This document shows positions 897-30,365 of a stretch of DNA of 32,175 nt, in pieces. Position 1 is the stretch's first letter. Each line of letters begins with the position of its first letter. The stretch is from Jimgerdemannia flammicorona. Taxonomy: Eukaryota. A program made the position numbers and the translations under genes. The stretch covers positions 1-32,175 of the forward strand of contig RBNJ01000363.1 in assembly GCA_003990765.1 (NCBI GenBank), given 5' to 3'. The notes below the pieces were generated by a model. The model had not been told where the DNA came from and made no database searches. It saw only the letters and a program-made list of their open reading frames with translations.

Positions 897-1346
897 TAGA
901 AATAGTATATATAATGATCAATATAATCAGATTATTATATTCTTATTGAGCCAAAGTTATCAATATAGTAGCATATATATGTAATTAATATATATCTTAA
1001 GTATTGAGTAAAAAATCTAGCAAAAATAATAATAAGTATTCTAGGAATAATTATGATCTTACTCTTAAAAAGTTATAGAGTAGAATGAAGTCAGACATAT
1101 TATATATATATATTTAGATATAATATATATGTATATTCTCAATAAGAGTAATATTAATCAGTATAAGTTTAAGCTGAAAGCTAGTATAGATATTCTAGTA
1201 AGGTATATCAACTTTGGGATCTATGTAAATATTATATAGTAATCTTATATGATATACAGTTTAATAAAAAAATGAAATCAGAAACTCTATATATATGTAT
1301 CTATTAGAATCTCTACTTTAATAAAGAGCCTGCCTTAATATATATA

Positions 1347-1490
1347 TCTCAAGCTATTGTAACCCCAGCAACCTCCTATGATTTGATTCTGGAAACTGAC
1401 TGGTTGCACTAAGTTAGAGTCAATGTAGATATCAAGAAGCAACTTCTGGTCTTCACCTTTTATAGACAAAAGTATAAAGTCCCAATTGAG
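1347..1490 (+). pseudogene. Aspartic protease C-terminal half (Gypsy pol relic)
   Basis: AIVTPATSYDLILETDWLH*VRVNVDIKKQ aligns with VIVTNATNYDILIGNQWLHKAKAVID of the minus-strand element. Confidence 0.75.
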
Positions 1491-2602
1491 TCAAAAGAAT
1501 TAAGAAAATCAAGTCAAGTCTCTAAGATAGAATAGTAAGGATATGGATATACACCCACTACTACTGAGAATGAAAGTGAAGTAAATTTTCTGCAAGAATT
1601 AAAAAGTGATTTTGATGTATTTAGAAACTCTAAAGGTAGCCAAGAAGACCTTTTTATTAGAGTAATTAATACTGAAAGCTTAGAAGAAAGTATTGATTAG
1701 ACTATTAGTGAAGAAGCAGTATGCAAATTTGCAAGATCATCTATACAACCACTAATACCTCTGAAGAAAAACTTAATTATGCAAGTCTTCTACCTAGGTA
1801 TGTGTGAATACTATAATTATTTCTACTCACTAAGAGATAACTGTAGTAACTGTTGAATCCTTGATCTCTAGAAGGTCTCAATACTAGTAATTGAAGATAA
1901 GAATGAGTTAAAACAAGTCCCAGTTCTTATATAAACACAACCACCTACTTCCAAAGGTTTTAAGAAGACTTATAAAGAAGAACAGAAGATCCTCTCTCAT
2001 CAACCTTTAGAGATCCTCATAGTTAAAGGCAATAATAACAATGTCTATACTATTACCCAAGCTCTTCAGATTACTCTACCCACCTATGATAAATATTAAA
2101 GGAGATACCCCACAAGTAAGGAAGTTAAACAATAAAATGAGAAATTTGTCAAGCAAGGACACTGTGATTGTGAAAAGATCTTTACCTATTATTGGTATAA
2201 ATATCAAAGTATTTACCTTAGTGATGATGTCTACAAGAGTTGAGTTAAGAGAAAGAACTCTACTCTGCAAGAATCTCAAATCTACTAGATCCATCAAAAA
2301 TATAAAGAGATCAATTATGAAGGAGATTATAAAGCCAAGAACAAGACCTCATCTAAAATCTGCCATTAGAAATTCTTACTATTATCCATTGATATTACCA
2401 ACTATACCAAGGCAAACAAGGAGTCAACCTTGCCTTCTCTTTTATAGAAGCCTTAGATCTACTTGGAAAAACTGGATTCAACTATACAAAGATCCCAAAG
2501 ACTAGAGTATATTAGCTATTCTTTAAGCCAGAATATATGGAATTATTTTCTATAGTAGCAAATACTGAGACATCATTTCTCAAGATCCAACTAATCATCT
2601 AA

Positions 2603-3001
2603 GTTAAACTACTATCACCTTGAGTACAACCTTCTCTTATACAGACAGAAGGATTAGTAGAATATAATCTCTGCCTCTCTTATCAGACAATGCTCTATCC
2701 CAAGACTACTAGAATCTTTGACCTTTAGATTACACTTGCTATACCATCTGGACACTATAGATAATTAACATTAAGGTTATCTTTGGTAGTTAAAGAAATT
2801 ATAGTAAAAGGAGGAGTTATTGACCAGAACTACCAAGGTTCTCTGAAAGTCATTATTTGCAATAATAGTAGAAACCACTGAGTCTTTAACCTCTTAGAAG
2901 CTATCTGCCAGATTCTGTTCATTAAGATATCACAGCCCACTATCTAAGAAGTGAACCAACTTAGCAGTATGAAGAGAGAATAAAGAGGCTCTGGAAGTAC
3001 T
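2603..3001 (+). pseudogene. dUTPase domain relic within Gypsy pol
   Basis: One frame with stops: ...LAIPSGHY..LRLSL..KGGVIDQNYQGSLKV..AICQILF..RE*RGSGST, i.e. dUTPase motifs II-V. Confidence 0.85.
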
Positions 3002-3469
3002 AATATAATCTCTCAACTACCTATTGAAGTCTACTTGGTAATAGTAGCTCAGTTCTGTCAAATAAAACTATATATCTATCACTCTATCTGAGTAAGAGAA
3101 GATATTCTCCTTCAATTATATCAATAAAGAAGTCTTGATATATATCTATCTATGAATACTAATAATCTGATATTTGAGCCATAAATAGAACTCTGAGAAA
3201 AGTATCACCTTCTTCTGGCTGAAGAACAAATATATGATCAGATGTCATCAATCTATATTCTTATTCAAAACCTGAGCTTTGAAGTAGTAATAATTTCCAA
3301 AGAAATAATATTGAGATATTTTGAACTACTGATAGATATCTACATACAAGGAAGAAATCTTTGAATTCTTAGAAAACAGCAAGCCCTCTCTAGTGAGACT
3401 GATAGTATCAGAGAGAAAGACTCAGTAATCAAAGCTATTAATATCAAAACAACTCTAACCAAAGATTAG

Positions 3470-4883
3470 CAATAACAGATACAGAAGTTGATAAAAGAAT
3501 ACAAAGATATATTTACTACTATGTACAGTAACTTTCCACTATATCAATATAGAGAATATATTATATATATAGGAGATACTAAACCAATTCTTCAATGCCT
3601 CTATTGAACACTATACTACCCAATTGAGTTTGAACAACAACATATAGATGAAATATTACAAAACAGAGTTATCAGACCCTCATTAAGTCCCTGGACTTTA
3701 TCAGTAATTATAGTATCAAAGAAAGGAGGATAGAGACTAGTTGTAAACTTCAGAAAACTTAACAAGATTACTATAGAAGATATCTATCTACTATCAAAAA
3801 TTGATAACCTTCTCAATATTCTTAGAAAAGTCAAGTTTGTGATCACTACTGACTAGTTTCAAGGATTCTAAGTAATATCTATTGCTAAGAATAACATCTG
3901 TAAGACAGTCTTTATTACTAGATAAAGATAGTATAATATCTCTAAATATCATTTGGACTCTACAATATACTAGTCTCATTCTAGTAAATGATAAACTATA
4001 TCTATTAAGACCTCATTAGAAGAAACATATTAATATATATAGATGATATAATTATCTACTCAGAAACATTTGAACAACACTTATGAGACTTCTACAAAGT
4101 ATTTAATATCATCTGAAATTCAGAACTCAGACTTAATACCAAGAAGTACTTCTTTGGAAAACACTAAGTTGAATATCTAGGATATGTAGTTTCAGCCCAA
4201 GGAATCCATGCTGACTCATACAAGATAGAGGAAGTCAAGAGCTATCCAATCTCTGTCTCTGTAAAGAAAGTCTTATTTTTTCTCATATTAGTATCCTACT
4301 ACTGGTAGTTTATCTTAAGATTTTCAGACAAGATAGCTCTACTATTTAATATCTCTAAGAAAGACCAGTCATTCTACTGAAAGAAAGAATAGTAGAAGTC
4401 ATTTGACCTACTCACTGAAGCCCCTATTCTAGTACAATCAGATTTTGATAAACTATTTATCTTGACAACAGATGCCTCTACTCTTAGACTTGGATTAATT
4501 CTATCTCAGCTAGATGTTCAGAAGAAAGAACATATCATTAAGTATGCTAGCAAGACCACTAATAAGATATAAGTAGACTATAAAGCCACCAAGCTGAAAT
4601 ATCTTGCAGCAGTATGAACTATTGATCACTTTAGATACTATCTCTTGGAAAAAAAATTTACCCTTATTACTGACCACTAAGCTTACAATAGCTGTTCAAT
4701 AAACCAGAGCCTTCAGGAATCTTTACTAGATGGATCATGTCTCTACAAGAATACCAGTTCACTATTATTTACAAAAAAGACATCAAGAATTCTAATATTG
4801 ATACTCTATCAAGAACCCCACAAACTCAATAAGAAGATAAGGAGCCTCCATGAGAGAAGACTGCTTCCTACTCACCCAAATGA
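3470..4883 (+). pseudogene. Reverse transcriptase + RNase H relic
   Basis: IRPSLSPW, VNFRKLNKIT, IYIDDIIIYS (~4034), LTTDAS (~4462), LITDH and NIDTLSRTP (~4795-4820). Confidence 0.9.
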
Positions 4884-7800
4884 ATTAAGAACTATGCCTT
4901 GTCCTCACCTTGAGCCTATACTATAAAAACTTTAAAAAGAGAATTCAGTCAGCTTACAAACTGTTTATTCAAAGGAATTTTAAGAAATTTTAAGAAGGTG
5001 ATAGTGAACTTTGGAGAGTAAAAGGAGATCAATACACTTAAGTCTCACAAGAAGATGAAATACAGAAGATACTCACAATAAACCATAATCAGAATATATA
5101 TTGAGGAATTAGAGCTATGTACTATTATAAGAATACTAGTATAAAAATGAGAAAATAAATTTCAACACACATTTAATAATATGATATCTGTCAAAGATAC
5201 TGATAAAAACCAATCAATAAAGTACTACTAATATCAATTGCAGCACTAGCTAGAGCCTTTCAAAGACTGGGAATAGACATCATTAGCTCTCTACTAGTAA
5301 CTAGTCAGAGAAAATGCTATATTCTCACCATTGAAGATCATCTGATGAAATGGCCTAAAGTCTTTACCATTGAGACTGCTGATGCTCAGACAATCATTGA
5401 GATCTTATATGATGAAATTTTTAGCTGCCATGGTGTCTCCAAGGAAATCATCATAGACTAAGGTTAGGAATTTTTCAACAAAGCTATGAAGACCTTCATA
5501 GCCAACTTTAAAATCAAACTGTATCTAATAATAACCTATTACCTACAAGTAAATAAACTTACTGAATAAATAAACCAGACCATCAAGCAAGGCCTCAGCA
5601 AGATTAGAGACTAATTGAATTGGGATATCTACCTATTAGCAATTCCATTTAGCATCCATACTTCAAAAGCTACTACTACCCAACAGATCTCTTTTTATTT
5701 GGTATATGGCTAAGAAGTACAAAACCCAGCTGAATCAATCTAGTTAGATTTGATAAAATAAGTTACTAAAGAGATCACCTGGTTATATGAAGTATACCAG
5801 CAAGAATAAGGATTTATTACTAAGATATAAGAATATCAGAAGAAGTACTATAACTGCAAGGCTAACCTTGAATCTCTACTCATTAGACAATAAGTCTTAG
5901 TATACCATACTATCATATATAAAATAAAACTGGAGTATCAAACTTGAACTAAAATGAGAAAAACCCTATCTTATTTACCAAAAGTTCATAAACTATACTT
6001 TTTTTTTTTTTTTTAAAAGTTACTTGGACTTCCACTTTATTATCAAACTGCCTATGATGTATTAATACAAATGAACTCCCCACCCAATCCACTATATATG
6101 TACCCACAATCCTTCAGCTGATATCTCTTAGATCTCTCTCTCTACTCTCCATCACTCCCTGCTAAAGTACTACTCAGTCACCTATCACCTAAACCCTCCC
6201 TCCACTCTTCTTGCAAATATAATTCACCAGATTCCAACAGCTCCCCCCACCTGGTCCCCACCCTCTCCACCAACCATTCAAAATGTCAAGTAATAACTAT
6301 TCCCAATATACAACCCTAGCTCTAAATATAACCTGCTGGCCCTCCTCAAAGACATGAAGCCAATGACTGGTTATCTCTACCCAAATTATCAGAGCCCACC
6401 CCAAGGTCAACCATTCATCTCTCACCCTATCCACTAGCCTTTGCTGGAGGTCCCCCCATCTTCTTCCTTCTTCCCCCACAAGGGATCTCAATCTCAATCT
6501 GCTAGAAATACTATATTAAAACTTCTCCAAAACTTCACACTCTCCTAGCAAATGTTCAGGAATTTGTACCACTCCTCCTTCCTGACAATGTTTATATATT
6601 CCTCACACTCAAACACCCTGTCTGCCACCAAGTACCCAGACTGATAGTTCAATATCACATTTCACCTCAGGAACCTCTACCAGACTACCTAGAACTTGGG
6701 GAGAAGTTACTATATCATCTGCTTGCTCCAAGACCAAATACCATTTCAGTTCCACTTCTTACCAATTCCTATCCTCTGTCATGCTTTAGACCACATGTCC
6801 CCCCCAAGCCCTCTCATACATTCCATTCCATCTCCAAGCTGAAAGTCCTCTACCAATATATCTCCTAGTAGAAGCCAGTCTTATCTCCACATCTGTAGTC
6901 TCCAGTTCTCCACCCTCTCATCACTCCTCTATCAAAGTTCAATCCTTTTAGCACTATCTACTACTCTCCACCAAAAATCTTTATAATACATCCTCCTGCT
7001 TCTATCTATGACCACTATTGCAAGCAGATCACCAGTTGCTTCATGAGGGGAATACTGGACTTTCCACACCCTCTATATAAGTGACACCTACTCTCAGTCT
7101 CACAACTCACTTGCTCTCTTCAGCCACTATGCTTGCAGACAATATAGACACTTAGTAAAGTCTACTAAGCTCAGCCTACCTCTATCAACAGGCAAAGTCA
7201 GAACTTCTCAGCCTATCTGACTCTACCACCCAGCCCAAATCCACAATCTTACTATCTTCAGAAGTCACCTGATCACCTATGTCAGGAAGTCCAGATGATA
7301 CTCTATATACTACAGCTTTGGCATCCAATACATATTCAGCACTATCATCCTTTCTGCCAAGGATATATGCTGGCCACTCTACTATAAGAGAATATTCCCC
7401 CATACTAGTAGCTACTATTCCCACTATATATGAGGCAGAAGGGATCCATATACTGAAAAGTATATCTCCAAGTACCATACCAGTTCTTCTGCTGGAACTA
7501 CTGTCCCAATCATGTTACCTCTTACTATTCTGCCATCTAGTACTAGAGTCTCACATTTGTGTCAGTTGAGTTGAGTACCTGAGCCTCTCTCATACTATTC
7601 TACAGTTCTTCTTAATTCTTCTACATTTACTAATGAACCCAGTCTAACTACCATATCATCTGCAAAAACCCCAACCTTCCAGTTAATCCCTAAAATATCC
7701 AAACCCCCAATTTGATGCCAAATCCTATCTAATAGGGACTCTAAGAAAAGGATATATAGGATGGGTGATAAAGAGTCTCCTTGTAGCACCCCACAACCTA

Positions 7801-8862: not shown

Positions 8863-9659
8863 GCAGAAGCAAAATATATTTGAACAACTCTGTTCACTCC
8901 ATCTATATCACCTCTATTAGAGAATAACAGATACTTTATATGAAACTCAAGAAAGTTAATATCATTAAAATTAATCTTAAGTCTATTTATATAATAGATA
9001 TTACTACTTGAAATTACCTTAGATTATAGAAAATATTATTTCCAAGAGAGTTGAACTCCCTATCATAACAATGAGCTCTCACTCTAGACAAGGATGGTCA
9101 GTCCTTACAAATGTGCCAATAGTCTAAAAAAAAAAAAAAACTAAGACCTATTATTTCTATATAATCATCTTTACTGAGGATAGCTCTAATTTTGCAAGAA
9201 ATAGATATGATGACATCTTAGAAACTGATGACATCAAAGTAAAGAGACTGCTTAGACTTTATAAGTCTCTAGTTACAAATTATGACTCAACTATGACTCA
9301 TCTTGATCAGAAGATAATCTGCATCTGAATTCATTATAACTTATAGTGACCTCAGCAATATATTACTCCAAATCAGGTGACCCTACTCTCTGGACCAAAG
9401 AAGAAGACCCTTAGGATATAAAAGAAGTATCAAAAAGGAGTATAAGATATTATTTATAAATAAGAAACTCACTATAAAACAAAATACCTACTATCTGCCA
9501 AATAGCAAGATCAAGGAATCACTAAGATCTATCAGTCCAATATCAGATATTATCTAATATTAAAAGAGCTATAAGAATGCATATAAGAAGGACTCCAAGT
9601 CTGAATCTCTTTATAAGAAACCCATACTACTATACTCTCAACTATTGTGAAATGGAAAC

Positions 9660-9890
9660 AAGAATCTCCACTACTACTAAGTATCTCTGGATATAGTAAG
9701 AATATAAGTTGGAATATCATCTCTGCCAAGACCTCTCACAGACCAACTCTTAAGAAATTATAGATAATATATATCTAGATAGATATAAATAGAAGTTGGC
9801 CAAGAGTCTACCAGATCTTCAGGCATATACCCTGGGTCATTTCTAACTTGAAATATGTCAAGGTTTCAGATATTTAAGAACTAACAAGTT
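9660..9890 (+). pseudogene. Relic of accessory ORF3 downstream of integrase
   Basis: **EYKLEYHLCQD...KLAK/RVYQIFRHIPWVISNLKYVKVSD (one frameshift) aligns with QEYFKLGQVLNQD...IVKRIYKLFQEDESALAHLRGVTPSD at 23181-23642. Confidence 0.65.
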
Positions 9891-10336
9891 GCTCTACAGA
9901 CCATCTTAAAGAAATGATTACAGAAGAAGTCCAGTCTACTATCATAGTCAAGAGTGATGAGGTTTAAGATCTTTGGAACTCCATACTAGAAGATAACTCA
10001 GATCAGTTCCTTTAAGATCTGATTGCATTGTTTCAAGATCCTCCTCTGAGAGTCTACTATCCTCAGAATTCCACAGATGTATTCTACTTTATAGATGACA
10101 ATATTATTGATTAGAGATCTCAAGAACCAGAGTAGAGTGAACTGCTTATTTCATGAGAAGAAGACCTTAACAACCTTCTGGAGGAGTATATAAGCTCTCT
10201 TTTACTATCCACAGAACCCACTACTAATCTTAGCACAACTGTAGAGGATACAGAAAATGATTTGGCTGGACTCCCTAAAGAAAATAAAGAAGAAGATAAG
10301 GATGATATAATTCCAGTCACATTGAACTTCAAGTTA

Positions 10337-11080
10337 TATAAGGACAGCTCTATTAGCCAAATTTGAGTAAGTTAGTTAGTTGTATAAGTTAGTTAGTTAT
10401 ACAAAAAATAACTACTTATTAACTAGCCAAATTTGTTATAAACATAAGATTAGCCTTATTTAGCTAGTTAGTCACTTGATTTCCAAAAGCATACTAAATA
10501 GTATCTTCTAGTAACTATGAGTTATAACCAATTATATAGCCTTATACATAACTTGAAATTTGTATAAATATTTCCTTAACTGGTAGTGAATAAACCTCAG
10601 TCAATTAATTTGCATTACTAACTTAAGTTCTGAAAGACAAAGAAAGTCAAGTGTAAGAACTTTGGGAAAAGACTCCAAGAGTTGAAGAAATTACTCTTAC
10701 AATTACTATTACAGAAAATCATCATATTATAGAATTTAAGATATAAGACCCAGGAAATATCAGAATGCTATCAGGAAATATAGAAAAACCACAAAATGAT
10801 CACTAGCCAGAAACTCAAGAATAACTCAGTTAAAATTGCTACTATAAAGAAAACTACTATAAAAAACCACTAAGTAAAGAAATGCTACCACAGTCAGTCA
10901 AGACTACTATTATGAAATTCAAGATACTAGATCTAAGAAATATCAGAATACTATCAAAAAAATATACAGAACCTGCAAAACTCACCAGGAAACTTAGCCA
11001 AGAACACTAGGATAATCATTAGTATACCAGAATCTGTAATATATATTTTTTCACTTTTTGCCATTTTGAATATCTAGTTA
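10337..11080 (+). repeat. Probable decayed 3' LTR of the + strand Gypsy element (boundaries approximate)
   Basis: TGTATAAAT-N16-GTGAATAAACCTCAG at 10561-10600, and an internal ~70-bp direct repeat at ~10727-10797 / ~10910-10980. TG..CA termini are not clearly preserved. Confidence 0.55.
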
Positions 11081-11418
11081 TGTGACCAACAACTCATGAT
11101 ATATAAACTCCAACTTGATGTGAGAAATGTGAATAAATTAAACAGCAGTTGAACTGAACATTGAGCTAGAACATTGTTAGTAGAAGAGATAAATAGCATA
11201 TAAATAACCAGTGGTATATTGAGTTACTACATTTCTACAAACAATCTATATAAATTATATGCCAAAATATATTTATATATTTATATATCAGTTTTAGGCA
11301 CCAGCACTAACTTGTACTCTTTTGGATATTACTATAATACAGACATAATGTACAGTATCTAGTTATATCTCTTGGTCACTCATCCAAATACTTTAAGTTA
11401 TATACTTCAAGCCATACA

Positions 11419-15719: not shown

Positions 15720-15841
15720 TTTTTCAACGTGAATACAACCACGCTTTATTCATATGATTGCCATTTATTGTGAATATTTTTCCTTTCTGGCAGCTACCTG
15801 TCATTTTCCTATTATTTTTTATTTTATTTTTTAGCCACAAA

Positions 15842-17970: not shown

Positions 17971-19443
17971 CTAATTATATATTTGACGGTATCGATATTT
18001 GCTCCCCGTCCAAAGCGTCACGGCAGGATAGATCTTGTCAGGAAGACTTCGCCACACGACACCGCAGTCATGCCCATTGAGAGAGAAGGAACAGGTTCGA
18101 TTGTTCATGTTCAGGCGGAATGTGATAATATCATTTTCTTTGAGTTGGTGGTTGCATGCGGTCGCACCGGGGTAAATTAGGTGGTAACTAGGTTGGCATG
18201 AATAGAAGCACCACACAAAACGAGAATTCGAATTTAAGTTCTTGTTGAATTGTTTGAAATCCTCTCCAACAAATCCCACGGCGTTGATTACAGCTTTCAA
18301 CCACACGCCGCTCGATTCAATGACAATCTCCCATTCGCACGACGTTGTGAACGGTATCTCCAATCTGGCTGAGCAAAAGGTGTCGGACGCGTTGTGATAC
18401 TCAATCACTGCACCGTTTTCCGAGACGACAACCCCTTCTCCGGTCCTCCATTTGTATACCTGTATTGGTTGCACACCACGGATTTTGGATGGATGGCCGG
18501 GAGAACATTTGACGGTGGCACAAGCGATCTGGGAGAGTGTCAGGTATTGGGGGGACCTATCCGTGATGACGTCGATAGCTTCGGTCAGTAGCCTCACGCG
18601 GTGTGGACAAATAAGCTTGAGGTCTATATGGCGCCACATCATCTGCACGGACTCGAGCGACTGACTGTCGACCAGACGGACATACATATTCGCGTCTGGC
18701 TCACCATACGGTTCCGCTGGGTTTCGGAGTCGTTCGAGACATGCATGCCGCTCAGCATCGTCAGGAACTTGCTCACCACGGGACCACGCCCAATCGACAA
18801 CGCATAGAAAGAGGGTGTGTTCGGGAGTGTGGAACTCCATGAGTGAATTGTCCTTCGTGCGAGTAAGGAGCAGCTCAAGCGCTTTCTTGGAGAGGCCATT
18901 CAGCTCTCCGACAGTAAGCAGGCGACGGCAGAATGGTTTCATTAGAAGGTTGTATAGCTCCGCGGTTGCCAGGTTGTCTGAGGGGGTGATGTCGACGGCT
19001 CGGTTGAGAAGCTTCCTGGCATCGTCGAGATCCTGGCCTCCATAACCTTGTTCGGCCTGTTCGAGAGCCAGATTCATGAGTTTCGGGAGACGGAGGAGGG
19101 CCGCCGCTTGGTAGGTGTCCAAGGCGTCGGAGGGTGAGAGCGGGTTAGGGCCGATAGTTTCGGTGTGGATGTAGTGCAGCACGGCGCGAACGGCTTTGGA
19201 ACTGGTGCTCTTGAGATGGATACGATGCGGGGTGTGGGAATCCCGAGCTTCGGGGCCGTAGAGCATGCGCTTGAAGACCGACGACCTAGTAGCTAGGAAG
19301 GAGCGGCAGGCTTGGATCTCGATATTGTCAGAGCAGACAATGGTTAAATCGTGGAGAGTTGTGTCGGTGAGAAGGTTTGCAACGTCGTCCTTCAGGCTGA
19401 GACCGCTCTCGAGTTGGGTGGATGTATCAACCATAGTAACCAT
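17971..19443 (-). CDS. BTB/POZ-(BACK-like)-SPRY/B30.2-like (ConA-fold) protein, putative Cullin-3 substrate adaptor, 490 aa
   Basis: Intact intronless ORF. HDLTIVCSD..ACRSFLATRSSVFKRMLYG..VLHYIHT BTB; PEHTLFLCVVDW BACK-like; EWEIVIE..DIITFRLNMNNRTCSFSLNG..LPDKIYPAVTL SPRY. Confidence 0.9.
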   Translation of the reverse strand: MVTMVDTSTQLESGLSLKDDVANLLTDTTLHDLTIVCSDNIEIQACRSFLATRSSVFKRMLYGPEARDSHTPHRIHLKSTSSKAVRAVLHYIHTETIGPNPLSPSDALDTYQAAALLRLPKLMNLALEQAEQGYGGQDLDDARKLLNRAVDITPSDNLATAELYNLLMKPFCRRLLTVGELNGLSKKALELLLTRTKDNSLMEFHTPEHTLFLCVVDWAWSRGEQVPDDAERHACLERLRNPAEPYGEPDANMYVRLVDSQSLESVQMMWRHIDLKLICPHRVRLLTEAIDVITDRSPQYLTLSQIACATVKCSPGHPSKIRGVQPIQVYKWRTGEGVVVSENGAVIEYHNASDTFCSARLEIPFTTSCEWEIVIESSGVWLKAVINAVGFVGEDFKQFNKNLNSNSRFVWCFYSCQPSYHLIYPGATACNHQLKENDIITFRLNMNNRTCSFSLNGHDCGVVWRSLPDKIYPAVTLWTGSKYRYRQIYN

Positions 19444-19894
19444 AATGTATTGTTAAAGTGAAAAGGATTGCGTTACTGGTTATACCATGACGTAATTAAG
19501 TGGTGACGGTATCAGGTCATGGGACCGTCGTTTTCCAAACCTTTCAAGGCTGTCACAGCTTCTCCCAAACTCATTTACAAAGTAATGTGATGTATTAACT
19601 GATTCAGACTAACAAGGATATGAACGAATATGTTATTCATGGCAGCTGAGCTACCAACTGTAAAATTTGGTCTTTCACAGGTGCCGCTAAGCTCCAGGTA
19701 TCGGTTTTTGCGCGTATTGCGCACACGCAAACCAGGAGGCTTTCGCCGATTGAAAAGTGTGGAATCGTACGTTGGAACTAGAGCCATAATGCGGTTTTGG
19801 ATCTTCGTTTCAATGCGCAGGCACGCGCAAGACTTAGGACGCAGCAAAAACGGTGAACGCGGGTAAAGGCACCAACGGTCATGGTACCAAACAG

Positions 19895-21400
19895 ACCTCT
19901 GGCCACAAATCTCTCTCATACTCCTGCAGACATTCTATACTATCCTCTAAGTAAAAATTATCTACCAGTATACTCTCTAATAGTAGACAATTCTACCTCT
20001 ACATCTGGGGTCTCTATTTCTTCTCTTCCTTATCACTCTACTACCTGAGTCCAATTCAATGAGCACTATTAACCACTTCTTACCAGAATCTCCTATAGTA
20101 CATCTTTCTGCTCTCCTCCAGTACCACTAGAGAAAGCAGATCACCAGTCATACCCCAGAGAGAGAACTAAACCTCTCACACCCTCTGTATAAGGGACACC
20201 TACTCTCAACCCCTCAATTTGCTTATTTGTTTCAGCCACCATACTCTCAAGCAGTGTAGATACTTGGTAAAGTCCACCAGACCCAGCTCTCCTCTATCTA
20301 CTAGCAATATCAATATCTTCTAGCTGATCTGACTCTATCACTCTGTCTATATCTATGATCTGACCATCTTCAACAATCTCTTGATCATCTATACTAGGAA
20401 GTCTAAGTAATATCCCAAATACTACAGCTTAGATAGCCAATATATATTCAACACTATTACTCTTCTTACCAAAGAGATATATTGGCTTCTCTATCTCAAG
20501 AGAGTATTTCTCTACTTAAGTAGCCACTGTTCCTACTAATCTTGAGGCAACAGAAAATAGTGCTCTCAAATGAATCAAATCAATTTAAATTAAATTAAAT
20601 TAAGGGTCATTCAAATTGAATTGAATTGGGAATTTTTCAATTTGAATTAAGTTCAAATTGAATCAAATTCAAATTAAATTAAAGGTCTAATTTGAACTCT
20701 ATTTTTCAAAATATAATAACTTGATAAATATATGTCTAAATTCAATAATCTTTAGCTTATTAAATTCTCCTATATATGTAAGAGAAATCTAACAAGCTAA
20801 AGATCATTAAATTTAAATATATATTTATTAAGTTATTATATTTTGAAAAATAGAGTTTAAATCAGACTTCAAATCAAATTAGTCTTTAATTTAATTTAAA
20901 TTAAATCAAATTGAATCTTTGATTTATTAAGAGTACTAATAGAGAACTATATATTAAAAAATAAATTCCTAGGTAGCAGACTACTTCTTCTACTAGAATA
21001 ATTATTCCAATTATATCTCCTTCTATTATTTCTCTACCTAAGACTAGAGTCTCATACTTATGCTAGTTAAGCTTAGCATCTGAGCACTCCTTATACTATT
21101 TCACTATACTCTTTAGTGCTGCCACATCCTCTATAGAGCCTAGCCTGACTACTATATTATTAGTAAAGACCCCCATCTTTCAGTTTACTCCTAGAATGTT
21201 CAACTCCCCTACTCTGTATTATATCTTGTCCAACAAGAGCTCTGGTGAGAGGGTATAAAGAATTAGTAACAATAAATCTCTCTATAGCACTTCTCTGTCC
21301 AGAAAAAATAACTTTTCTCTGTATCTATTCATCATAATAGCCATCTGACTCCCCTTCAACAAACTAATTAATAATCTTCTAAACTCTAGAGAAACTCTCT
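19895..21400 (-). mobile_element. Degenerate LINE fragment related to 6001-8775, interrupted by a MITE
   Basis: Collinear nucleotide similarity with ~6790-7900 (e.g. AAGCAGATCACCAGT, CTAGAGTCTCA, AACTAAT.AATAATCT); strongly CpG-depleted. Confidence 0.8.
20558..20938. mobile_element. hAT-type foldback MITE
   Basis: TIRs TAGTGCTCTCAAATGAATCAAA / TTTGATTTATTAAGAGTACTA. 8-bp TSD ACAGAAAA / ATAGAGAA (two transitions). Internal inverted arms of ~90 bp around ~20775. Confidence 0.85.
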
Positions 21401-22676: not shown

Positions 22677-23143
22677 TGTAACATAGTGGATGCTTACTCT
22701 TGAAAGTACATCAGATTTCTGTATCTTGAAAACTTGACTGTTCTGACTCTCGCAGAGTCTCTTGAAGTTGCAGGGGAGGGTGGGTGGGTTCGAAGTGTAT
22801 CTGCCTGCAGGCTTACTAGTTCCTTTGCTATCTCTTTGATTTGAACTATTTTGATCTGAGGTTTATTCACTCAAAGATACTGGGTTATTTATACAAGTTT
22901 GCTAGCTATGAGATGGTTACTGGGTTACATGGCTAAGTTATGAGTCATTTAATACTTTGCGAAATGTTTTGCCAGTTGCGAAATGCTATACTATATCAGG
23001 AAACTCAATCTTGCACTTTGCGAAATATTTAGCAAGTTGCGAAATCAAGGACTGTTAACTATGTGGCTATACTACTTTGGGACTGGGTGCAATCAAGTAT
23101 CTATTCCCTATTTCCTTCTTCCAAATCTGGCTATACTGTCACA
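22677..23143 (-). repeat. 3' LTR (467 bp)
   Basis: TGTAAC...GTCACA on the + strand; direct repeat of 28913-29322. Confidence 0.95.
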
Positions 23144-23154
23144 ACTTCCTCCTG
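23144..23154 (-). promoter_or_regulatory. Polypurine tract
   Basis: (C)AGGAGGAAGT immediately before the TGTGAC start of the 3' LTR on the - strand. Confidence 0.7.
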
Positions 23155-23180
23155 AATAGATGATCTCGTCTCTAAAGCAT

Positions 23181-23642
23181 CTATTCAAACTCCCAAGCTT
23201 CAATGGTCTGTATGGTCTTGTATTGCACAATTTGTTACATTACTGTTTCCCAATGGTATCGCCTAACTTGGTCGAAGTCTGAGGGAGTCACTCCTCGCAG
23301 ATGGGCTAGTGCTGATTCATCCTCTTGGAATAGCTTGTAGATTCTCTTAACAATAGTGATCTGGGAATAGGAGAGCTGGCATTCTGCGATCTAATTTTCT
23401 TTGGTCATTTCTGGGTCTTGATTGAGTACTTGGCCAAGTTTGAAGTACTCTTGGAATTCGTTTCGATGCTGATAGGCCTTGAAGTGTGAGATCCAAGAGA
23501 GATGAGTCTGCACGATGCTTTGGATACTGTCATAAGATTCCTCTATGGTCGGAGGCTCAGTGGTGCACCATTGTCTCTTGATGGCTCTTTGGGCAGTACT
23601 AGTGATCTTGAGTGCCATCACAGTACTTTTGTTACTAGCCAT
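23181..23642 (-). pseudogene. Accessory ORF3 (~153 codons, two internal stops), unknown function
   Basis: The ORF-track 83-aa ORF continues in frame past TAG as IAECQLSYSQITIVKRIYKLFQEDESALAHLRGVTPSDF...; a homologous relic lies at 9660-9890. Confidence 0.7.
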
Positions 23643-24825
23643 GATATTTCTTGAGTTGGTTTTGGTAAATGGTGGTGGGGATTATTGTACCTGAGGGTTT
23701 TCATAGCCAAAAGGTGGTTCCTTTTATATCTTACACAAGGTAAGATCCCTCCCACTTGGGCTCCAGTTTTCGTAACCATGAAGCTTCAACCATATTCCGA
23801 TATACTAGGACTTTGTCTCCTATCTTGATAATCTTCAAGGGTTTGTGGGTCTTTTCTACATTCCTCCATTATAGTGTCTGTGCCTTCGTTATGTAATCCT
23901 CAGCCTTCTTCCTGATTTGGTATAGTCTCTGTATTTCTATGTCCACATATTTCCATACAGCATCTCCATTGGATGACAGCATTCCCTGAGAACATTCTTC
24001 TCCAAACAGTATTTCTTGAGAGGTAAAGTGGGTGCTTTGTGATTGGATATCCCGGAGAGCAGATAATGCTATTGGTAGATAGTGATCCCAGTTCTCATAG
24101 TTATTGCAGATCTTAGCAATAACATTCTTGAGGGTTTTGTTGGTCCTTTCTACTTGTCCATTTTCTTGAGGGTGATATGCTGTAGTCTGAATATGCTGGA
24201 TCTTGTACTTCTTGTAGAAAACTTTGAAGAACTGATTCACGAATTCGGTTCCTCTATCTGTAGTTACTTGTGTTGGAGTCTTGAATCGGCAGATGATTTC
24301 TTTGTGGAAGAAATCAGCGATTGACTGTGCATTGGCTTCCATAAGGGGTCCTGCTTCTATCCATTTTGTAAAGAGGTCTACAATGATGATGATGTATCAG
24401 TTGCCAGTCAAGGTCAAGGGTAGGGGGCCGATTATATCTATTGCAATGTGGGCAAATGGTACTGATTCTATGTGTGCTGATCCTGGGGCTTGATTTCATT
24501 GGTCTTGTTTCTGTTTCTAGCATTTGTCGCAGATCTTGACAAATTGTCTGATATCTTCCTCCATCCCTGGCCATCATATTGTTCTTCTTGCTTTGTCATA
24601 TGTATTTGTTCCTCCTAGATAGCCAAGTTCATGTACTGATTTCATTGCTTGCTCCTTCTTGTGTTCTGATATGACTAGTAGTTTTCCTTTCTTCAGTATT
24701 TCTCCATCAGTTTCGAATTGTTTCTATGTTCTGTTGATAATCATTTGTATCCATTCTTCCAGATGTTGGGGCATCTTTTGCTGTTCTAGGTATGTGATAA
24801 TTCTGTAGTAGAGCTCCTTATTCAT
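23635..24825 (-). pseudogene. Integrase, separate ORF (~396 codons, in-frame stops)
   Basis: MNKELYYRIITYL..VHELGYL..CDKC (HHCC zinc region, second His now Tyr)..IAIDIIGPLP..TDRGTEF..YHPQENGQVER..KLEPKWEGSY..KKYHG*, all in one frame that differs from the RT-RH frame. Confidence 0.9.
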
Positions 24826-24850
24826 GGCGATTTTGTAGGGGTGGGGTCCT

Positions 24851-27800
24851 TCAGGGTGTCCGTGAGAGGGCATCTGCATTAGCATTGGTTCTTCCAGAGT
24901 GATGTATGATGGTTATGTCATAAGCTTGCAACTTCATTATCCATCTGGCATAGATTCCTTTGGGTTGTTCAGTTGTCAGTAGCCAGGTAAGAGCTGAGTG
25001 GTCTGTTTGGATGGTGAAGTGTCTTCCAGCCAAGTAGTAGTGAAACTTTTCTATAGCCCAGATAACTGTGAGGCATTCCAACTTGTAGGATTCGTATTCT
25101 TTTTCAGCTCCTCGGGTTCTGCGGCTGAGGTTTGTAATGATATACTCCACTTTATCTTTCTTTTGAGCTAGGACTGCTTCTAGTCCTTGTGCACTTGCAT
25201 CAGTCTGTAGGATGAATTCTTGAGTCCAGTCAGGTCTTCTGAGGATGGGTGCCTGGGTCAGTCTGACCTTGAGTTCATCAAATGCTTTTTGTTGTCTGCC
25301 AGTCCACTGGAACTTGGTATCCTTCTTGTTAAGTTTGTAGATTGGTCCCGCAATATTAGAAAATACTCTAATAAATCTGCAATAATAGGAGGTAAGTCCC
25401 ATGAAGGCTTGGACTTCCATAACAGTGGTGGGTCTTGGGTATGCTGCTACTGCTTGTATCTTGAGGGGGTCCATGTGTGTTCCATCTCAGTTGATGATGT
25501 GGCTGAGATAGGAGATCTCAATTTCTGCGAACTTGCACTTCTTGGGTTTGATGTAAAGGCCATATTGTCTTAGTCTCTCCATTATCTGCTGTATGTGCTG
25601 CAGATGTTCCTCAGGTGTCTTACTGTAGATGATTACATCATCGATGTAGACCATCATTCATCTTCCCATGTCATAGTGGAAGATTTTGTTCATCATTCAC
25701 TGGAAACTTACTAGTGCATTGCACATTCCGAATGGCATTCGTAGGTAGACATAGGTTCCATCTGGAGTGATGAAAGCTGACTTTTCACTTGCCATATCTG
25801 TGAGTCCGATTTGGTGGAATCCTGAGTATAAGTCCAAGGTGCTGTAGTATTGTGCTTCATCTCTCAGTATTATGAGAATGTCATTGATGAGGGGCAGTGG
25901 TTGGCGATCCTTCTTGGTAACCATGTTGAGTTTTCTGTAGTTGACACAGAGTCTTGGGGCGAATTCTCCAGGCTTGCTGCCTTTTTTCAGGACTAGTACA
26001 ATAGGTGAGGACCAGGGGCTGCTTGCTTCTTTAATGATACCGGCTTCTTCCATCTGCTTGATTTCTTCTCTGAGCCATTCTTGGTAGGCTGGTGGGACAG
26101 GTCTTGCTTTCTGATAAATTGGTTCGGTGTCTCCAGTATCTACTTCATGATAGTAGTGTGGGGTCTTTCCTTTGATATCCTTGAAATCTGTAGCAAGGAC
26201 GTCTTCGAATTCATGGAGTATTTTCTTGAGTTCTTTCTTGAGTGGAAATTCATTTCTGATGGTGTAGCTATGCTTGCTTGTGTTTTCCTCCTTCTTATGC
26301 TCAAGTTCGGTGATCTTGGTGTTGGCAAATACTCCTCTTCCTGTAGATCCAAATCCTTTCTTTCCTCTTCTTGTTTCCTCCAGCTTCTTAACTTCTATGA
26401 TCTTTGGTTGTAGGATCAGAAAGATCAACATTTGCGCCAATCGGTCCTTCTTTTTGACTGAGAATGGGATTGTAGGATTGTGATTCCTAGCAATGAGTAG
26501 AATTTCTCCAGTGTAGTCTGAATCGATGACTCCTCCTTTGATTGTAATTTCACTTCTAGCCAGGCTGCTTCTTATCTTGAGAATCCCAACATGATTCTTT
26601 GGGATAGTCATCTCCAATCTGGTTGCAAGTAGGGTAGTTGTCTGGGGTTCCAGTATGGTTTCTTCTACTGTAGTGATGTCCATTTTGGCTGCATTTTCTG
26701 ACTTGTATTCTGGCAAGACTGTGTCAGGGTGGATCCTTCGAATCTTGACCTTGATTTCTTCTTCATCATCACTGTCCTCCAGGAGAGCTGGTGATTCGTC
26801 ATCTTCCTCCTTCTCTTCTTCCCTGATCTGTTTTTCAAGAGCTTTCTGCCTTCTTGCCTGGTAGATCTTCCTGATTCCGATGGTGTACTGATAGCAATCA
26901 TTGACATGCTCCATGCAGTACATCTTGATCCTGTGAGGACAGACTCCTTGTGGAGCATAACCTTCTGTGATCTTCTTATACCATTCTTCTTCACTCATCC
27001 ATCTGACTTTCTTCTTCTTTGGAGTAGTCACCATATAAGCTTCCTCCTGCTTGCTCTCTTCTTCCTCCATGTCAGGCAGGACTCCTTTGTTGACATTGAT
27101 GGGAATTCATATCTTCTGTCCCCGGTAGGTGATCTGCATCTTCTGGGCATTGAGGTCTATTACTGCCTTGGCTTTGTGAAGCCATTGATTGCCAATGAGG
27201 ATGTCATAGTTGGTGGCATTGGTTACGATTACATCTACTGAGATGGTTGCTCCTCCAATCTTGATGGGAATGTCTTGGATCTTTCCCAGAGGTGTGGCTC
27301 TTGTACCATCAGCTGTGACAAACACCAGCTTAGTTGCCTCTTCCACATCCCAACCTAGGCAGTCTGCTGCCTTCTTGCTGAGGAGATATCCACCTGCTCC
27401 CATATCAATGATGGCCTCAAAGATTCTATCTTCAATTTGATATGTGGCATATGCAGAGGTTTTGCGATTGTCCTCACTTTCTTCTCCTGAGTCCTCTTGA
27501 GCGTTATTGGCCTCGGTTATCTTCTATCTCTGTTCTATAGTTGTTTTGGCAAGTCTAAACCTCATTTGCTGTCTGAATATAGGGATTTCTGCAAGCTGGC
27601 CAAAGGTTGCATTGACCTTTTGTTGGCTGAGGTCCTTGAAGATATCATACTTGAAGGTCTTGGTCTTGTGAAGCTTCTTCTCTTTTTCTCCTTTACTGGC
27701 TGGAGTGGTTCCTTGGATGATATCTTGAACTACTTGCTCCAGCTCTGTATCTTGGTCCATCTCTTCAGCTTGGCTTTCTGTAGCAGTTTCCATCTGCTTT

Positions 27801-28810
27801 TCCACTGGGTTCTTCTTGGGTCTTCCTGGTGGTCTCTTGTAGGGTTCTTTGCAAGCATCCTTCTTGGTGGTCTGAGCAGGATAGGCCTCCCATTCTTCTT
27901 CATCAGAATCTCCAATCTCCTCGAAGGTAATTGTATTGGCCTGCTTCTTGTTTTGTATGGTATTGCTTGGTTGAGCCTTGTGCTTGGTTTCGCTCATGCA
28001 TTCATAGGAGTAGTGGCCTTCTTCTCCACAAGTGTAGCAGATACCTTTCTTCTTATCTGAGGTGGTGGTGAACTTCTGGACAGGGCAGTGGTCTCTTCCT
28101 TGAATTTCCTTTACCACATCTCCCAGGTGGGCAGTCATTTCGGCAAACCTTTTGGCGAGTTCCTCCATAGGGTCACTGTTCTTTTGCTGCTCTATAGCTT
28201 TTGGTTGAGGTGTATTTCGATTGATCATTGTGGTAGGGATCACACTGGTTGCCTTGGGTGCCTCAATTCTGACTCCTGTGACCCTTTCCATTGTATGATC
28301 TTGTGGATGTCTGGCTATCTAGTATCGCTGAGCATAGGTGACCTTCTGTGGCAGATTCAGAATTACTGGTGATGAGCGGATGGCCATGGCTATTTCTGGA
28401 TGAACTCCTTTCATGAAGATTGCTTTGGCTACTTGATCTCAGATAGCAGCAGCATAATCTGCAAGAATTATCTGATATCAAATTCTGATATAGAATGTGT
28501 TTAGATCCTCGCTCATTCCTTGGCATGTTGTGTTGAGCTGATCCTTCAGGGCTTGCTTGATCTCATCTGTGTAATATGTATTTCGGAGCCAGGTCTTCTG
28601 TGCTGTCAGTATGGCATCAGCATCATTTCCTGCATGGGTTGTGGCTGTGAATGCTGCTCTGGCAGGGCCTCATAGGCTAAAGGGCATGAGGGCTACTTGC
28701 TGTGCTGCTGTCAGGGTCCTTACAGTGACATACTGCTCAAAATCATCAATGAAGGTGATGATTGATTCGTCTGAGATATATCTGTGGAATACTGGTGGTC
28801 TCATATCCAT
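24851..28810 (-). pseudogene. gag-protease-dUTPase-RT-RNase H polyprotein in a single frame (1320 codons, broken by in-frame stops)
   Basis: ORF-track pieces starting at 28291, 27403, 27070 and 25474 share one frame. Motifs: CYTCGEEGHYSYEC knuckle, AIIDMGA protease (DTG>DMG), SPWSSP, LDLYSGFHQI, VYIDD, LQTDAS, NADALSR. Confidence 0.93.
26339..26755 (-). other. dUTPase domain between protease and RT
   Basis: AAKMD (I, decayed), RSSLA (II), GGVIDSDYTGEI (III), DRLAQ (IV) and RGKKGFGSTG (V). Confidence 0.95.
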
Positions 28811-28892
28811 CTTGTCTGGGTATTGGGGCTCGGTTTGTGTAGTGGTGGTTGTTCATTGTTCAGCTTGAAAGTGAGGGATTCATCTTGAATCA

Positions 28893-28909
28893 CCAGCTAA
28901 TGGGCACCA
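28893..28909 (-). promoter_or_regulatory. Primer binding site
   Basis: TGGTGCCCATTAGCTGG, 3 nt downstream of the 5' LTR and complementary to a tRNA ending ...GGGCACCA; the tRNA is not identified. Confidence 0.8.
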
Positions 28910-28912
28910 AGT

Positions 28913-29322
28913 TGTAATGTAGCAGATGCTTACTCTTGAAAGTACGTCGGATTTCTGTATCTTGAAAACTTGACTGTTCTGACTCTTGCAGAGTCTCTTG
29001 AAGTTGCAGGGGAGGGTGGGTGAGTTCGAAGTGTATCTGCCTGTAGGCTTACTAGTTCCTTTGCTATCTCTTTACTTTGAACTATTTTGATCTGAGGTTT
29101 ATTCACTCGAAGATACTGGGTTATTTATACAAGTTTGCTAGCTATGAGATGGTTACTGGGTTACATAGCTAAGTTATGTATGAGTTATTTAACACTTTGC
29201 AAAATATTTAGCAAGTTGCAAAATCGAGAACTGTTAACTATATGGCTATACTACTTTGGGACTGAGTGTGATCAAGTGTCTATTCCCTATTTCCTTCTTC
29301 CAAATCTGGCTATACTATCACA
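28913..29322 (-). repeat. 5' LTR (410 bp)
   Basis: Direct repeat of 22677-23143, lacking a 61-bp block and carrying a 4-bp insertion. Confidence 0.95.
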
Positions 29323-30236
29323 ATATATATATATTGTCTATATTAGTTATCTTGAATTTCTTATACAGGGCTTCTTTAACTCTATTAAGTTTATTTTTCA
29401 TTACAATAATAATGATGACATTTATCCATATATCTATAAATACTACTCTATTAGTGTAGTATTGAATATATATATAGTTATCTGCTTTATAATATATAAA
29501 GTTATTATTAAAGAGATATTTATTGATTTTTCTATTCTACAAATGAGTTGCTTGCTTAATGCTATATAATTCTTTATATAGTTTATATATATACTTCTGA
29601 TAAAGAGAAGTATAAATATTCTAAGACATTTATAAGATAATCTATTACAATATAAATAATCAGTAATAATATTGAGAACAGATCAAGAATAAGATTGCTA
29701 CAGCTATTCTTATGGCTATTGAATATCAATAGATCTCTATAGAACTATCCTCTATCAATATATAAAATTCTATAGACCCTGATCCAAATGAAGCCCAACA
29801 ATATCTTAAAAGAATTCAATATTTCTAAGCCTTCTACTATTAACAAGAGTTGAAGAAATATTATAAGATTAGATGACTCATCTGCCAATAAGCAACTTTC
29901 AGCAAAGTCAAGCAACTGTTCTATCTATTCATTAATAACTATATCTACATCATTATAAAAATATTATATATTCTTTTCTATACTCAGTTTTAAGTTCTTA
30001 ACTATTTCTATAGAATATCTTTAGAGAATATTATCAATCTGACTGATAAATACTAGAGTGATATTATCTTTCAAGTAGTCTAGTATACAGCCCTTCAGTT
30101 TGAAGAATATTTAGAATTTTAGTACTGATCTTATTGAGTAGGTTCTGATAAAAAAGAGAAAAATATAATAGTTTATTATATATTAAACAAAGCTACTGAA
30201 AATTTCTAATAAATAGTCATAAAATATACTAATAAG

Positions 30237-30281: not shown

Positions 30282-30365
30282 TAGTTATAAATACTATATA
30301 TAGTATAACTATATATAGATATATCCAATATACTATATTTAGATATAACTTCAAATTTATATAAA

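What the first reader, a model, noticed from the sequence alone, without database searches (positions are those of the whole stretch)
23181..23642. Conserved accessory ORF3 of unknown function after integrase, shared by two diverged Gypsy families
Seen: reading through two decay-type stops gives ~153 aa containing QEYFKLGQVLNQD...KRIYKLF..ALAHLRGVTPSD. The other element, which has no evident nucleotide similarity here, has EYKL(E/G)YHLCQD...(K)RVYQIF..VISNLKYVKVSD at 9700-9880, with nearly the same spacing (28 vs 29 aa between KLG and KR) and in the same position. No signal peptide or TM segment (not Env-like) and no chromodomain motif are visible. Inference: a selected, probably helical, accessory protein such as a nucleic-acid binder, targeting factor or anti-silencing factor. 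It loosely recalls R.Y.LF-containing hypothetical proteins of arbuscular mycorrhizal fungi (from memory, unverified).
Basis: partly seen in the sequence, partly recalled or inferred. Interest (0 to 1): 0.75.

Follow-up and report, generated by a model that had tools for sequence, protein, structure and literature searches.

The report
Retrotransposon's own candidate transcription regulator
Several jumping-gene families in a probably fungal genome carry a real, conserved extra gene of no known family, and indirect evidence suggests its small protein is a two-part DNA-binding switch for the element's own promoter, though binding is untested.

Summary
The ORF is real: 153 codons at 23642-23181 (minus strand), two decay stops here, at least 150 copies in the genome (24 of 150 uninterrupted), and dN/dS about 0.1, like integrase. 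The two window copies alone do not align significantly (56 of 1000 shuffles), but profiles show they are homologous. The family spans eight groups, seven in this genome, including a chromodomain element. Corrections: the second copy is about 290 codons, frameshifted, and lies inside the LTR rather than in the same position. No Pfam, PHROG, PDB or fold match was found. The model (pLDDT 87.5) is all-helical with a helix-turn-helix-like core, and homodimer prediction passes its controls. A TATA box inside integrase sits 86 nt upstream (65 of 66 copies; 0 of 13 in a sister lineage whose gene moved into the LTR with its own TATA box). ORF3 and a family-specific U3 repeat array travel together. Best reading (0.55): a self-encoded LTR-binding regulator, like foamy-virus Tas or VANC. 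DNA binding and expression are untested. This scan found the family before on other pieces of this genome.

The parts
23181..23642 (-). ORF3 of element B: 153 codons plus stop; this copy is broken by two in-frame stops (codons 84 and 136)
   Evidence: (start ATG in 47 of 49 and terminal TAG in 48 of 49 gap-free copies)
23722..23728 (-). TATAAAA box inside the integrase D-I-K codons, 86 nt upstream of the ORF3 ATG; candidate internal promoter
   Evidence: 65 of 66 type-B integrase tails, 0 of 13 family-D tails; distance 86 nt in 44 of 47 copies with a TATAAAA upstream
23632..24825 (-). Integrase reading frame (decayed). Its start overlaps the RNase H stop, and its own stop lies 8-10 nt after the ORF3 ATG
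   Evidence: rve; TAA at ATG+8 in 49 of 49
23145..23153 (-). Polypurine tract between ORF3 and the 3' LTR (so ORF3 lies outside the LTR in family B)
22677..23143 (-). 3' LTR of element B (TG...CA)
   Evidence: 384 of 408 aligned bases identical to the 5' LTR; 23 of 24 differences are transitions
22954..23045 (-). U3 array of short repeats (four TTTCGCAA units with a weak dyad) upstream of the LTR TATA box at 22887-22893; candidate binding sites
   Evidence: (D9)
28912..29323 (-). 5' LTR of element B, with a 57-nt deletion in the U3 array
24818..28318 (-). gag (zinc knuckle), protease, dUTPase, RT and RNase H of element B (decayed)
9484..10366 (+). Homologous gene of element A: about 290 codons, many stops, one frameshift near 9800, acidic tail; lies inside the LTR
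9417..9423 (+). TATAAAA box 67 nt upstream of element A's gene, inside the LTR
   Evidence: seen in the window and in the other A loci printed there
9207..11265 (+). 3' LTR of element A (about 2 kb; end approximate). Many genomic copies look like solo LTRs
1323..5998 (+). pol region of element A (about 30-40% protein identity to B's RT, RNase H and integrase), continuing at about 8773
29682..30083 (+). Third, heavily decayed homologue in the window (family E; its relative L141 follows a chromodomain)
   Evidence: E 1.2e-4; 27.9 bits with the B-only profile, best null 7.4

Best explanation
ORF3 is a third gene of these Ty3/Gypsy elements, and most likely encodes their own transcription regulator. 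SHOWN: it is a selected protein-coding gene of a family shared by many LTR lineages; it has a lineage-tracking TATA box upstream in families B, D and A; it travels with a family-specific U3 repeat array. PREDICTED: an all-helical protein that dimerises through a long antiparallel helix (residues 40-76) and carries a helix-turn-helix-like head (81-105) plus three short helices. INFERRED: a short mRNA made from the internal promoter yields the protein. The dimer binds the short, often dyad-symmetric repeats just upstream of the LTR TATA box, and switches on, or keeps unsilenced, the LTRs of its own family in a host that methylates transposons. The acidic, aromatic C-terminal tails of most relatives would be activation domains. 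Family B has only a short remnant of such a tail.
For: Selection: dN/dS 0.07-0.16 between diverged subfamilies, CpG codons masked or not, versus 0.05-0.14 for integrase. Fold: pLDDT 87.5, pTM 0.79. With the first, weaker model the best structural rows were SopB, ParB, VirB and KorB DNA-binding domains over residues 61-120 (Z 4.6-5.5). Dimer: ipSAE 0.48 versus best control 0.22, runs agree in at least 73% of contacts, partner pLDDT at least 63. That mark was reached by 21 of 30 solved homodimers and 0 of 23 monomers; on eukaryotes 17 of 29 and 0 of 30, but by only 1 of 7 without an older solved relative. The conserved E62/Q64/Y66/G70 lie on the helix that forms the interface. Internal TATA: 65 of 66 versus 0 of 13; family D instead has TATAAAAG about 90-100 nt upstream of its gene in the LTR in 8 of 8 loci shown. 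Cassette: g1 and g2 differ in ORF3 and the U3 array but hardly in integrase or TATA/R, while g1 and g4 show the reverse. Residue 125 is K in 34 of 34 copies with one array type, and R or its CpG-decay products in 33 of 33 with the other. Positions 121, 124 and 125 vary among type-B proteins while D122 is conserved. Acidic tails: net charge -9 to -11 in the last 30 residues of C, D and A-like proteins. U3-array CpGs are slightly better kept than context-matched CpGs (p 0.02 and 0.03; 7 and 5 sites).
Against: No DNA binding or expression was measured. The better model has no significant structural match: best Z 4.3, no Foldseek hit at E<=0.001, so the helix-turn-helix call rests on helix pattern and weak rows. 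The presumed recognition helix (92-105) is essentially the same in the two subfamilies whose U3 motifs differ. ORF3-U3 co-travel is expected from geometry alone, since one template switch after integrase moves both. Dyad enrichment was clear in only 6 of the 21 U3 regions scored (g2, L111 5', G, one D), and only 1 of 5 repeat units beat unit-shuffling clearly (9 of 2000). The window's own g1 array did not pass. Family B has no long acidic tail (net -1 to -2). Families G and F show no TATAAAA upstream of their genes. The TATA contrast is in effect one lineage against another. U3 repeat arrays are common in LTRs and are usually bound by host factors (established knowledge).
Confidence: 0.55

Rival explanations
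1. ORF3 works at the RNA level, as a Rev/CERV-like factor that binds the genomic RNA for nuclear export, translation or packaging. The U3 arrays are then host-factor sites that merely hitchhike.
For: Precedent: CERV of C. elegans Cer1 is needed for genomic RNA export (PMC10309623, abstract). The long helix is basic (residues 41-60 net +9 counting His) and the protein is predicted to dimerise. Integrase is a separate ORF, so the RNA may need special handling.
Against: The acidic aromatic tails of most relatives and a separate upstream TATA box fit a transcription factor better. No sequence similarity to CERV or Rev appeared in any search, though none was aimed at them.
Confidence: 0.18
2. ORF3 is an adaptor for particles or integration: it tethers the pre-integration complex to chromatin or a host protein, or escorts it into the nucleus.
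For: Position next to integrase with overlapping start and stop. Insertions often sit in TA-rich sequence (flanks). Accessory TE proteins make many host contacts (PMC13547354, passages).
Against: ORF3 is exchanged independently of integrase between subfamilies. It occurs with very different integrases, including one that already has a chromodomain.
Confidence: 0.12
3. ORF3 binds the LTR but as a repressor or copy-number control factor, or blocks competing families.
For: The same DNA-binding anatomy would apply. Family B lacks a long acidic tail. In families A and D the gene survives in solo LTRs, where it could act in trans.
Against: Strongly acidic tails in A, C, D, F and G. These families reached very high copy numbers.
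Confidence: 0.1
4. ORF3 is a passenger: a captured host gene or an Env-like remnant with no role in the element.
For: No function shown; most copies are broken (126 of 150 have stops).
Against: Purifying selection equal to integrase, fixed position in 48 of 50 loci, no TM segment, no cellular homologue recognised.
Confidence: 0.05

Closest known systems
Sense additional ORFs (aORF-3S / ORF3) of Ty3/Gypsy elements: plant Athila/Bagy2 env-like genes (PMC7264820, parts 1-2 of 3 read); bdelloid dUTPase-bearing elements with Env, GDSL or DEDDy ORF3s (PMC5408684, abstract)
   Same: Extra sense ORF between pol and the 3' LTR, present in most copies, conserved like pol; dUTPase in pol as in three bdelloid lineages.
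   Different: No TM segment and no enzyme domain; a protein family without Pfam match; the gene lies outside the LTR in some lineages and inside U3 in others.
Foamy virus Tas/Bel1 (PMC517496, abstract start and passages)
   Same: Works like it in my reading: 3' accessory gene, internal promoter inside the preceding ORF, DNA targets in the LTR, acidic activation domain.
   Different: No sequence or fold similarity was shown. Host is probably a fungus and the element has no env. I found no copy of the U3 motif in the 760 nt upstream of ORF3 in six copies, whereas Tas also binds its internal promoter.
VANC anti-silencing proteins of Arabidopsis VANDAL DNA transposons (PMC5735166, abstract and outline)
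   Same: TE-encoded accessory protein whose targets would be short tandem motifs that differ between related families, in a host that methylates TEs.
   Different: Retrotransposon rather than MuDR; no similarity to VANC or MAIN seen; loss of methylation untested (only a weak CpG-retention signal).
CERV of C. elegans Cer1 (PMC10309623, abstract)
   Same: Novel nuclear accessory protein of an LTR retrotransposon.
   Different: CERV comes from a spliced mRNA and exports RNA; no similarity shown.
ParB/SopB/KorB/VirB DNA-binding domains and phage DUF3102 (PF11300)
   Same: Helical core of similar arrangement: top rows for model 1 (Z 4.6-5.5); DUF3102 rows stand out by probability in the viral library (0.69, TM 0.43; 0.47, TM 0.36).
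   Different: E-values are not significant; profile comparison with 20 DUF3102 proteins was no better than shuffles (probability 0.3); PF11300 finds nothing in the genome.
MMTV sag and other U3-resident retroviral ORFs (recalled; also named in earlier scan notes)
   Same: Gene inside U3, duplicated in both LTRs and kept in solo LTRs (families A and D).
   Different: Sag is a membrane superantigen (recalled); this protein has no TM segment.

Membership tests
Ty3/Gypsy LTR retrotransposon (element B) | LTRs, PBS, PPT and domain order gag-PR-RT-RH-INT | tested here: met
   dUTPase between PR and RT
Sense additional ORF (aORF-3S) | Sense ORF between pol and the 3' LTR in most copies | tested here: met
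   LTR follows in 50 of 50 loci, integrase tail precedes in 48 of 50
Sense additional ORF (aORF-3S) | Conserved like the core genes | tested here: met
Env / env-like ORF3 | Signal peptide and transmembrane segment | tested here: not met
   max hydropathy window at most 0.98 in 9 of 9 family members; no Pfam Env hit at cut-off
Chromodomain extension of integrase | Chromo (PF00385) match, beta-rich fold, in frame with integrase | tested here: not met
   all-helical; separate frame; family E has a true chromodomain and an ORF3 homologue after it
DUF3102 (PF11300) | Profile match | tested here: not met
DUF3102 (PF11300) | Shared fold | tested here: inconclusive
   E 0.96 and 2.4, TM 0.43 and 0.36
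ParB/KorB-type helix-turn-helix domain | Structural match to the DNA-binding domain | tested here: inconclusive
   SopB Z 5.5, rmsd 2.6, 55 aligned; VirB Z 3.6, rmsd 5.1, 78 aligned; SopB Z 3.1
Tas-like transactivator (functional class) | Own internal promoter | tested here: inconclusive
   TATA box tracks the gene in B, D and A, not seen in F and G; no transcript data
Tas-like transactivator (functional class) | Sequence-specific binding to the LTR and activation | not testable with these tools
   needs EMSA and reporter assays
Tas-like transactivator (functional class) | Acidic activation domain | tested here: inconclusive
   present by composition in C, D and A-like proteins; only a short remnant in B
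VANC-like anti-silencing factor (functional class) | Family-specific tandem target motifs | tested here: inconclusive
   family-specific U3 arrays exist; that they are targets is untested
VANC-like anti-silencing factor (functional class) | Causes loss of DNA methylation | not testable with these tools
   only an indirect CpG-retention signal
   not among the hits; no direct profile comparison was possible

The most novel reading that the evidence does not exclude
A whole group of fungal Ty3/Gypsy elements, from non-chromodomain dUTPase lineages to chromodomain elements, encodes its own sequence-specific transcription factor of a new fold family. It is expressed from an internal promoter and co-evolves with family-specific U3 operator arrays, which would be a retrotransposon equivalent of the foamy-virus Tas circuit, with the gene moving in and out of the LTR.
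Probability: 0.4. Interest if true: 0.82.

Novelty: new variant of a known kind. Interest (0 to 1): 0.62.

Why it matters
Most extra ORFs of LTR retrotransposons have no known function (PMC7264820). This family gives a directly testable case: natural subfamilies differ in both a few ORF3 residues and their U3 motifs, so a cross-binding experiment can be run with existing sequences. If the reading holds, simple retrotransposons have evolved a self-encoded transcription switch like that of complex retroviruses. That could help explain how these families reached hundreds to thousands of copies in a genome with strong CpG decay of transposons. It could also supply small programmable DNA-binding proteins.

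Tried and rejected
No family or structure match: Pfam on ORF3 and 34 aligned members (nothing at curated cut-off), PHROGs, PDB sequences (0 hits), Foldseek on PDB and BFVD (none at E<=0.001), wide structural search (best Z 5.5 and 4.3), ESM Atlas (top rows unnamed clusters, no usable family). No relatives found in viral contigs, prokaryotic genomes or annotated phages (E>=2). One metagenome locus was found. P0009 was rejected as a tandem-repeat artefact. DUF3102 membership was rejected at sequence level. My first idea that the pol stop overlaps the ORF3 start by 8 nt was dropped: the conserved stop lies 3 nt further on in 49 of 49 copies. No U3-motif copies were found upstream of the internal TATA box. 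No RNA holder was listed for the region, which is no evidence on expression. Two targets (F, G) were in the wrong frame and were rescored; the LINE frame was wrong and rescored. Source names for the database homologues could not be looked up. The U3 arrays of a third type-B subfamily (hits) could not be read beyond L109, L111 and L138, so the residue-motif pairing rests on few lineages. Literature searches for a described family (open-access library only, listings and abstract starts) found none; this does not cover subscription journals or Repbase.

Full report
1. Setting. The finding lies in a decayed Ty3/Gypsy element (element B) on the minus strand, 22677-29323. It has LTRs at 22677-23143 and 28912-29323 and gag zinc knuckle, protease, dUTPase, RT, RNase H and integrase. 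CpG is depleted in the element (observed/expected 0.23) but not in the BTB/SPRY gene region at 12-20 kb (1.01). A fungal host is my inference; an earlier scan note says Endogonales, which I did not check. CpG methylation of transposons is documented in Rhizophagus irregularis (PMC8647823, passages).

2. The observation. Window 23642-23184 reads as 153 residues with stops at codons 84 and 136. In 50 loci examined (30 best hits plus 20 chosen mostly for few stops) the LTR follows in 50 and the integrase tail precedes in 48. Among 49 gap-free copies, 47 start with ATG and 48 end at the same stop. The two window stops are sense codons in 44 and 40 of 49 copies. The integrase stop lies 8-10 nt after the ORF3 ATG in 49 of 49, so ORF3 is a separate frame. 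Stop density was 1.16 per 100 codons versus 2.6-7.3 in the other five frames; the loci were selected on ORF3 similarity, so this is biased in its favour.

3. Selection. Codons shared within subfamilies but differing between them give dN/dS 0.07-0.16 for ORF3, with transition weights 1-10 and CpG-prone codons masked or not. Integrase gives 0.05-0.14 in the comparisons where it has diverged. Four wrong frames give 1.4-3.9. The antisense frame that shares wobble positions gives 0.17 but has 5.2 stops per 100 codons. The gene is selected as protein.

4. Homology with element A. On window sequence alone the pairwise score is not significant (56 of 1000 shuffles), and the two motifs are in different frames. 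Other A copies have them in frame. Database searches gave an independent bridging group C (P0010-P0020). A profile of B+C, containing no A sequence, hits A copies at up to 24.8 bits (E 1.5e-7 over 180 frames; 26 of 30 A loci at the expected place with E<0.02). Profile-profile comparison gives probability 87, E 4e-6. Leave-family-out scores of the B+C profile were A 25.2, D 21.4, E 39.7 and 28.3, H 20.7 (best null 5.4), and F 26.1, G 22.0 (best null 5.3). So eight groups share the core: B, A, D, E, F, G and H in this genome, and C in databases without context. L141 (E) has the gene right after a Tf2-type SH3 domain and a chromodomain. A third, very decayed homologue lies in this window at 29682-30083.

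5. Position. In B, and in G (L155), the gene is between integrase and the PPT. In family D it is an intact gene of about 270 codons wholly inside U3, present in both LTRs of 1.5-1.65 kb (L134, L139, L144, L149, L151). In A it lies in a roughly 2-kb LTR starting near 9207, mostly found without pol beside it. The window's A gene is 9484-10366. A LINE (RT match E 2e-17) is inserted at about 5999-8775. 'Same position' is therefore wrong.

6. Structure. A 15-sequence alignment gave a poor model (pLDDT 47.8). A 34-sequence alignment of B, C and D gave pLDDT 87.5 and pTM 0.79 (five models 55-87.5), all-helical: 2-21, 40-75, 81-88, 92-105, 109-114, 120-124, 128-151. No significant match exists in PDB or BFVD. 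Weak rows point to ParB-type DNA-binding domains and DUF3102, but DUF3102 failed at sequence level. Two copies of P0002 reached the dimer mark: 0.48 versus best control 0.22, contacts agreeing at least 73%, pLDDT at least 63, antiparallel through residues 40-76. That mark was reached by 21 of 30 solved homodimers and 0 of 23 monomers; on eukaryotes 17 of 29 and 0 of 30, and by only 1 of 7 without an older solved relative. It supports but does not show dimerisation.

7. Own promoter. The integrase residues D-I-K are coded so as to spell TATAAAA in 65 of 66 tails followed by a type-B ORF3, 86 nt before the ATG. The same holds in the metagenome element L111. In 13 family-D tails with the same residues it occurs 0 times; 7 tails with other residues and L048 were left out of that count. 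D carries TATAAAAG about 90-100 nt before its LTR-borne gene in 8 of 8 loci shown, and A about 65 nt before its gene. G and F show no such box. This is in effect a contrast of one lineage with another, and no transcript data were available.

8. Candidate targets. Each family has its own short repeat array in U3 just before the LTR TATA box, inside otherwise similar LTRs. B subfamily g1, which includes the window, has GCAA-C-TTGC; g2 has GACA-T-TGTC; L111 has two further types. Sliding comparison shows that g1 and g2 differ in ORF3 and the array but hardly in integrase or TATA/R, while g1 and g4 share ORF3 and the array but differ in integrase and R/U5. Residue 125 separates the array types in 67 of 67 classified copies (of 75 records, 6 were dropped for gaps or partial length and 2 carry other arrays). 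This includes three copies whose ORF3 is partly g1-like upstream but which carry the g2 array. Against this: linkage is expected from a single template switch; the helix 92-105 barely differs between g1 and g2; dyad enrichment was clear in 6 of 21 U3 regions scored and in 1 of 5 repeat units under a unit-shuffling null, and not for g1. U3-array CpGs are a little better retained than context-matched CpGs (0.49 versus 0.37 and 0.68 versus 0.53; p 0.02 and 0.03; 7 and 5 sites), which is a weak signal.

9. Tails. C, D and A-like proteins end in acidic stretches with aromatic or leucine residues (net -9 to -11 in the last 30 residues); F and G look the same by eye. That composition is typical of acidic activation domains (established knowledge). 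B has only a short acidic-aromatic end.

10. Mechanism. Shown: a selected, separate, widely shared gene with its own TATA box in three lineages and tight linkage to U3 arrays. Predicted: a helical dimer with a helix-turn-helix-like head. Inferred: it binds its own family's U3 array and activates or unsilences the LTR (0.55). Rivals are an RNA export or packaging factor (0.18), an integration or particle adaptor (0.12), a repressor (0.10) and a passenger (0.05).

11. Comparison and novelty. By position it is a sense additional ORF (PMC7264820, parts 1-2 of 3 read; PMC5408684, abstract). It is not Env, not a chromodomain, and not DUF3102 by sequence. In my reading it works like foamy-virus Tas (PMC517496, passages) or VANC (PMC5735166, abstract), without shown homology to either. 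My searches of the open-access library found no description of the family; PMC11952901 (passages) showed no mention of accessory ORFs. No supplements were consulted. This scan had already noted the family, its LTR-borne form, the TATA boxes and the separate integrase on other pieces of the same genome. What this report adds is the profile-level homology across eight groups, a confident model, the dimer prediction, the TATA contrast and the ORF3-U3 cassette pattern. Verdict: real, a new protein family of a known kind of gene, with a specific and testable but unproven mechanism; interest 0.62.

Noticed in passing
window 24818-24825 (minus); L111 about 4610-4620; L041: Integrase is a separate ORF: its ATG overlaps the RNase H stop (ATG-AA-TAA geometry) in the window, L111 and L041; L031 and L035 have the same junction with a decayed start. 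This suggests stop-restart translation.
   Followed up: partly
window 5999-8775 (minus): Decayed LINE with RT and a poly(A) tail, inserted into element A just after integrase.
   Followed up: partly
window 1-900: LTR remnant of another lineage (G type, matches L155, whose element carries an acidic-tailed ORF3 homologue); it is not element A's own 5' LTR.
   Followed up: partly
window 29682-30083 (plus): Third, heavily decayed ORF3 homologue (family E); its relative L141 follows a chromodomain-bearing integrase.
   Followed up: yes
window 20569-20920 and 30355-30946: Two AT-rich elements with long inverted repeats (arms 121 and 162 nt), probably MITE or foldback-type.
   Followed up: no
window 14182-19452: Cluster of BTB/POZ and SPRY domain genes with a roughly 2.7-kb direct duplication at 90-98% identity and no CpG depletion.
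   Followed up: no
L111 1-520 and 6256-6479: Metagenome contig with the end of one type-B ORF3 before the first LTR and a different ORF3 and U3 array at the other end: tandem elements sharing an LTR, or a chimeric assembly.
   Followed up: partly
window 26339-26716 (minus): The element's dUTPase matches bacterial (mostly Bacillota) dUTPases at about 33-41% identity; nothing points to a recent transfer.
   Followed up: no
L008, L030, L098: Natural recombinants with breakpoints inside ORF3 (g1-like upstream part, g2-type U3 motif); useful for mapping specificity.
   Followed up: partly
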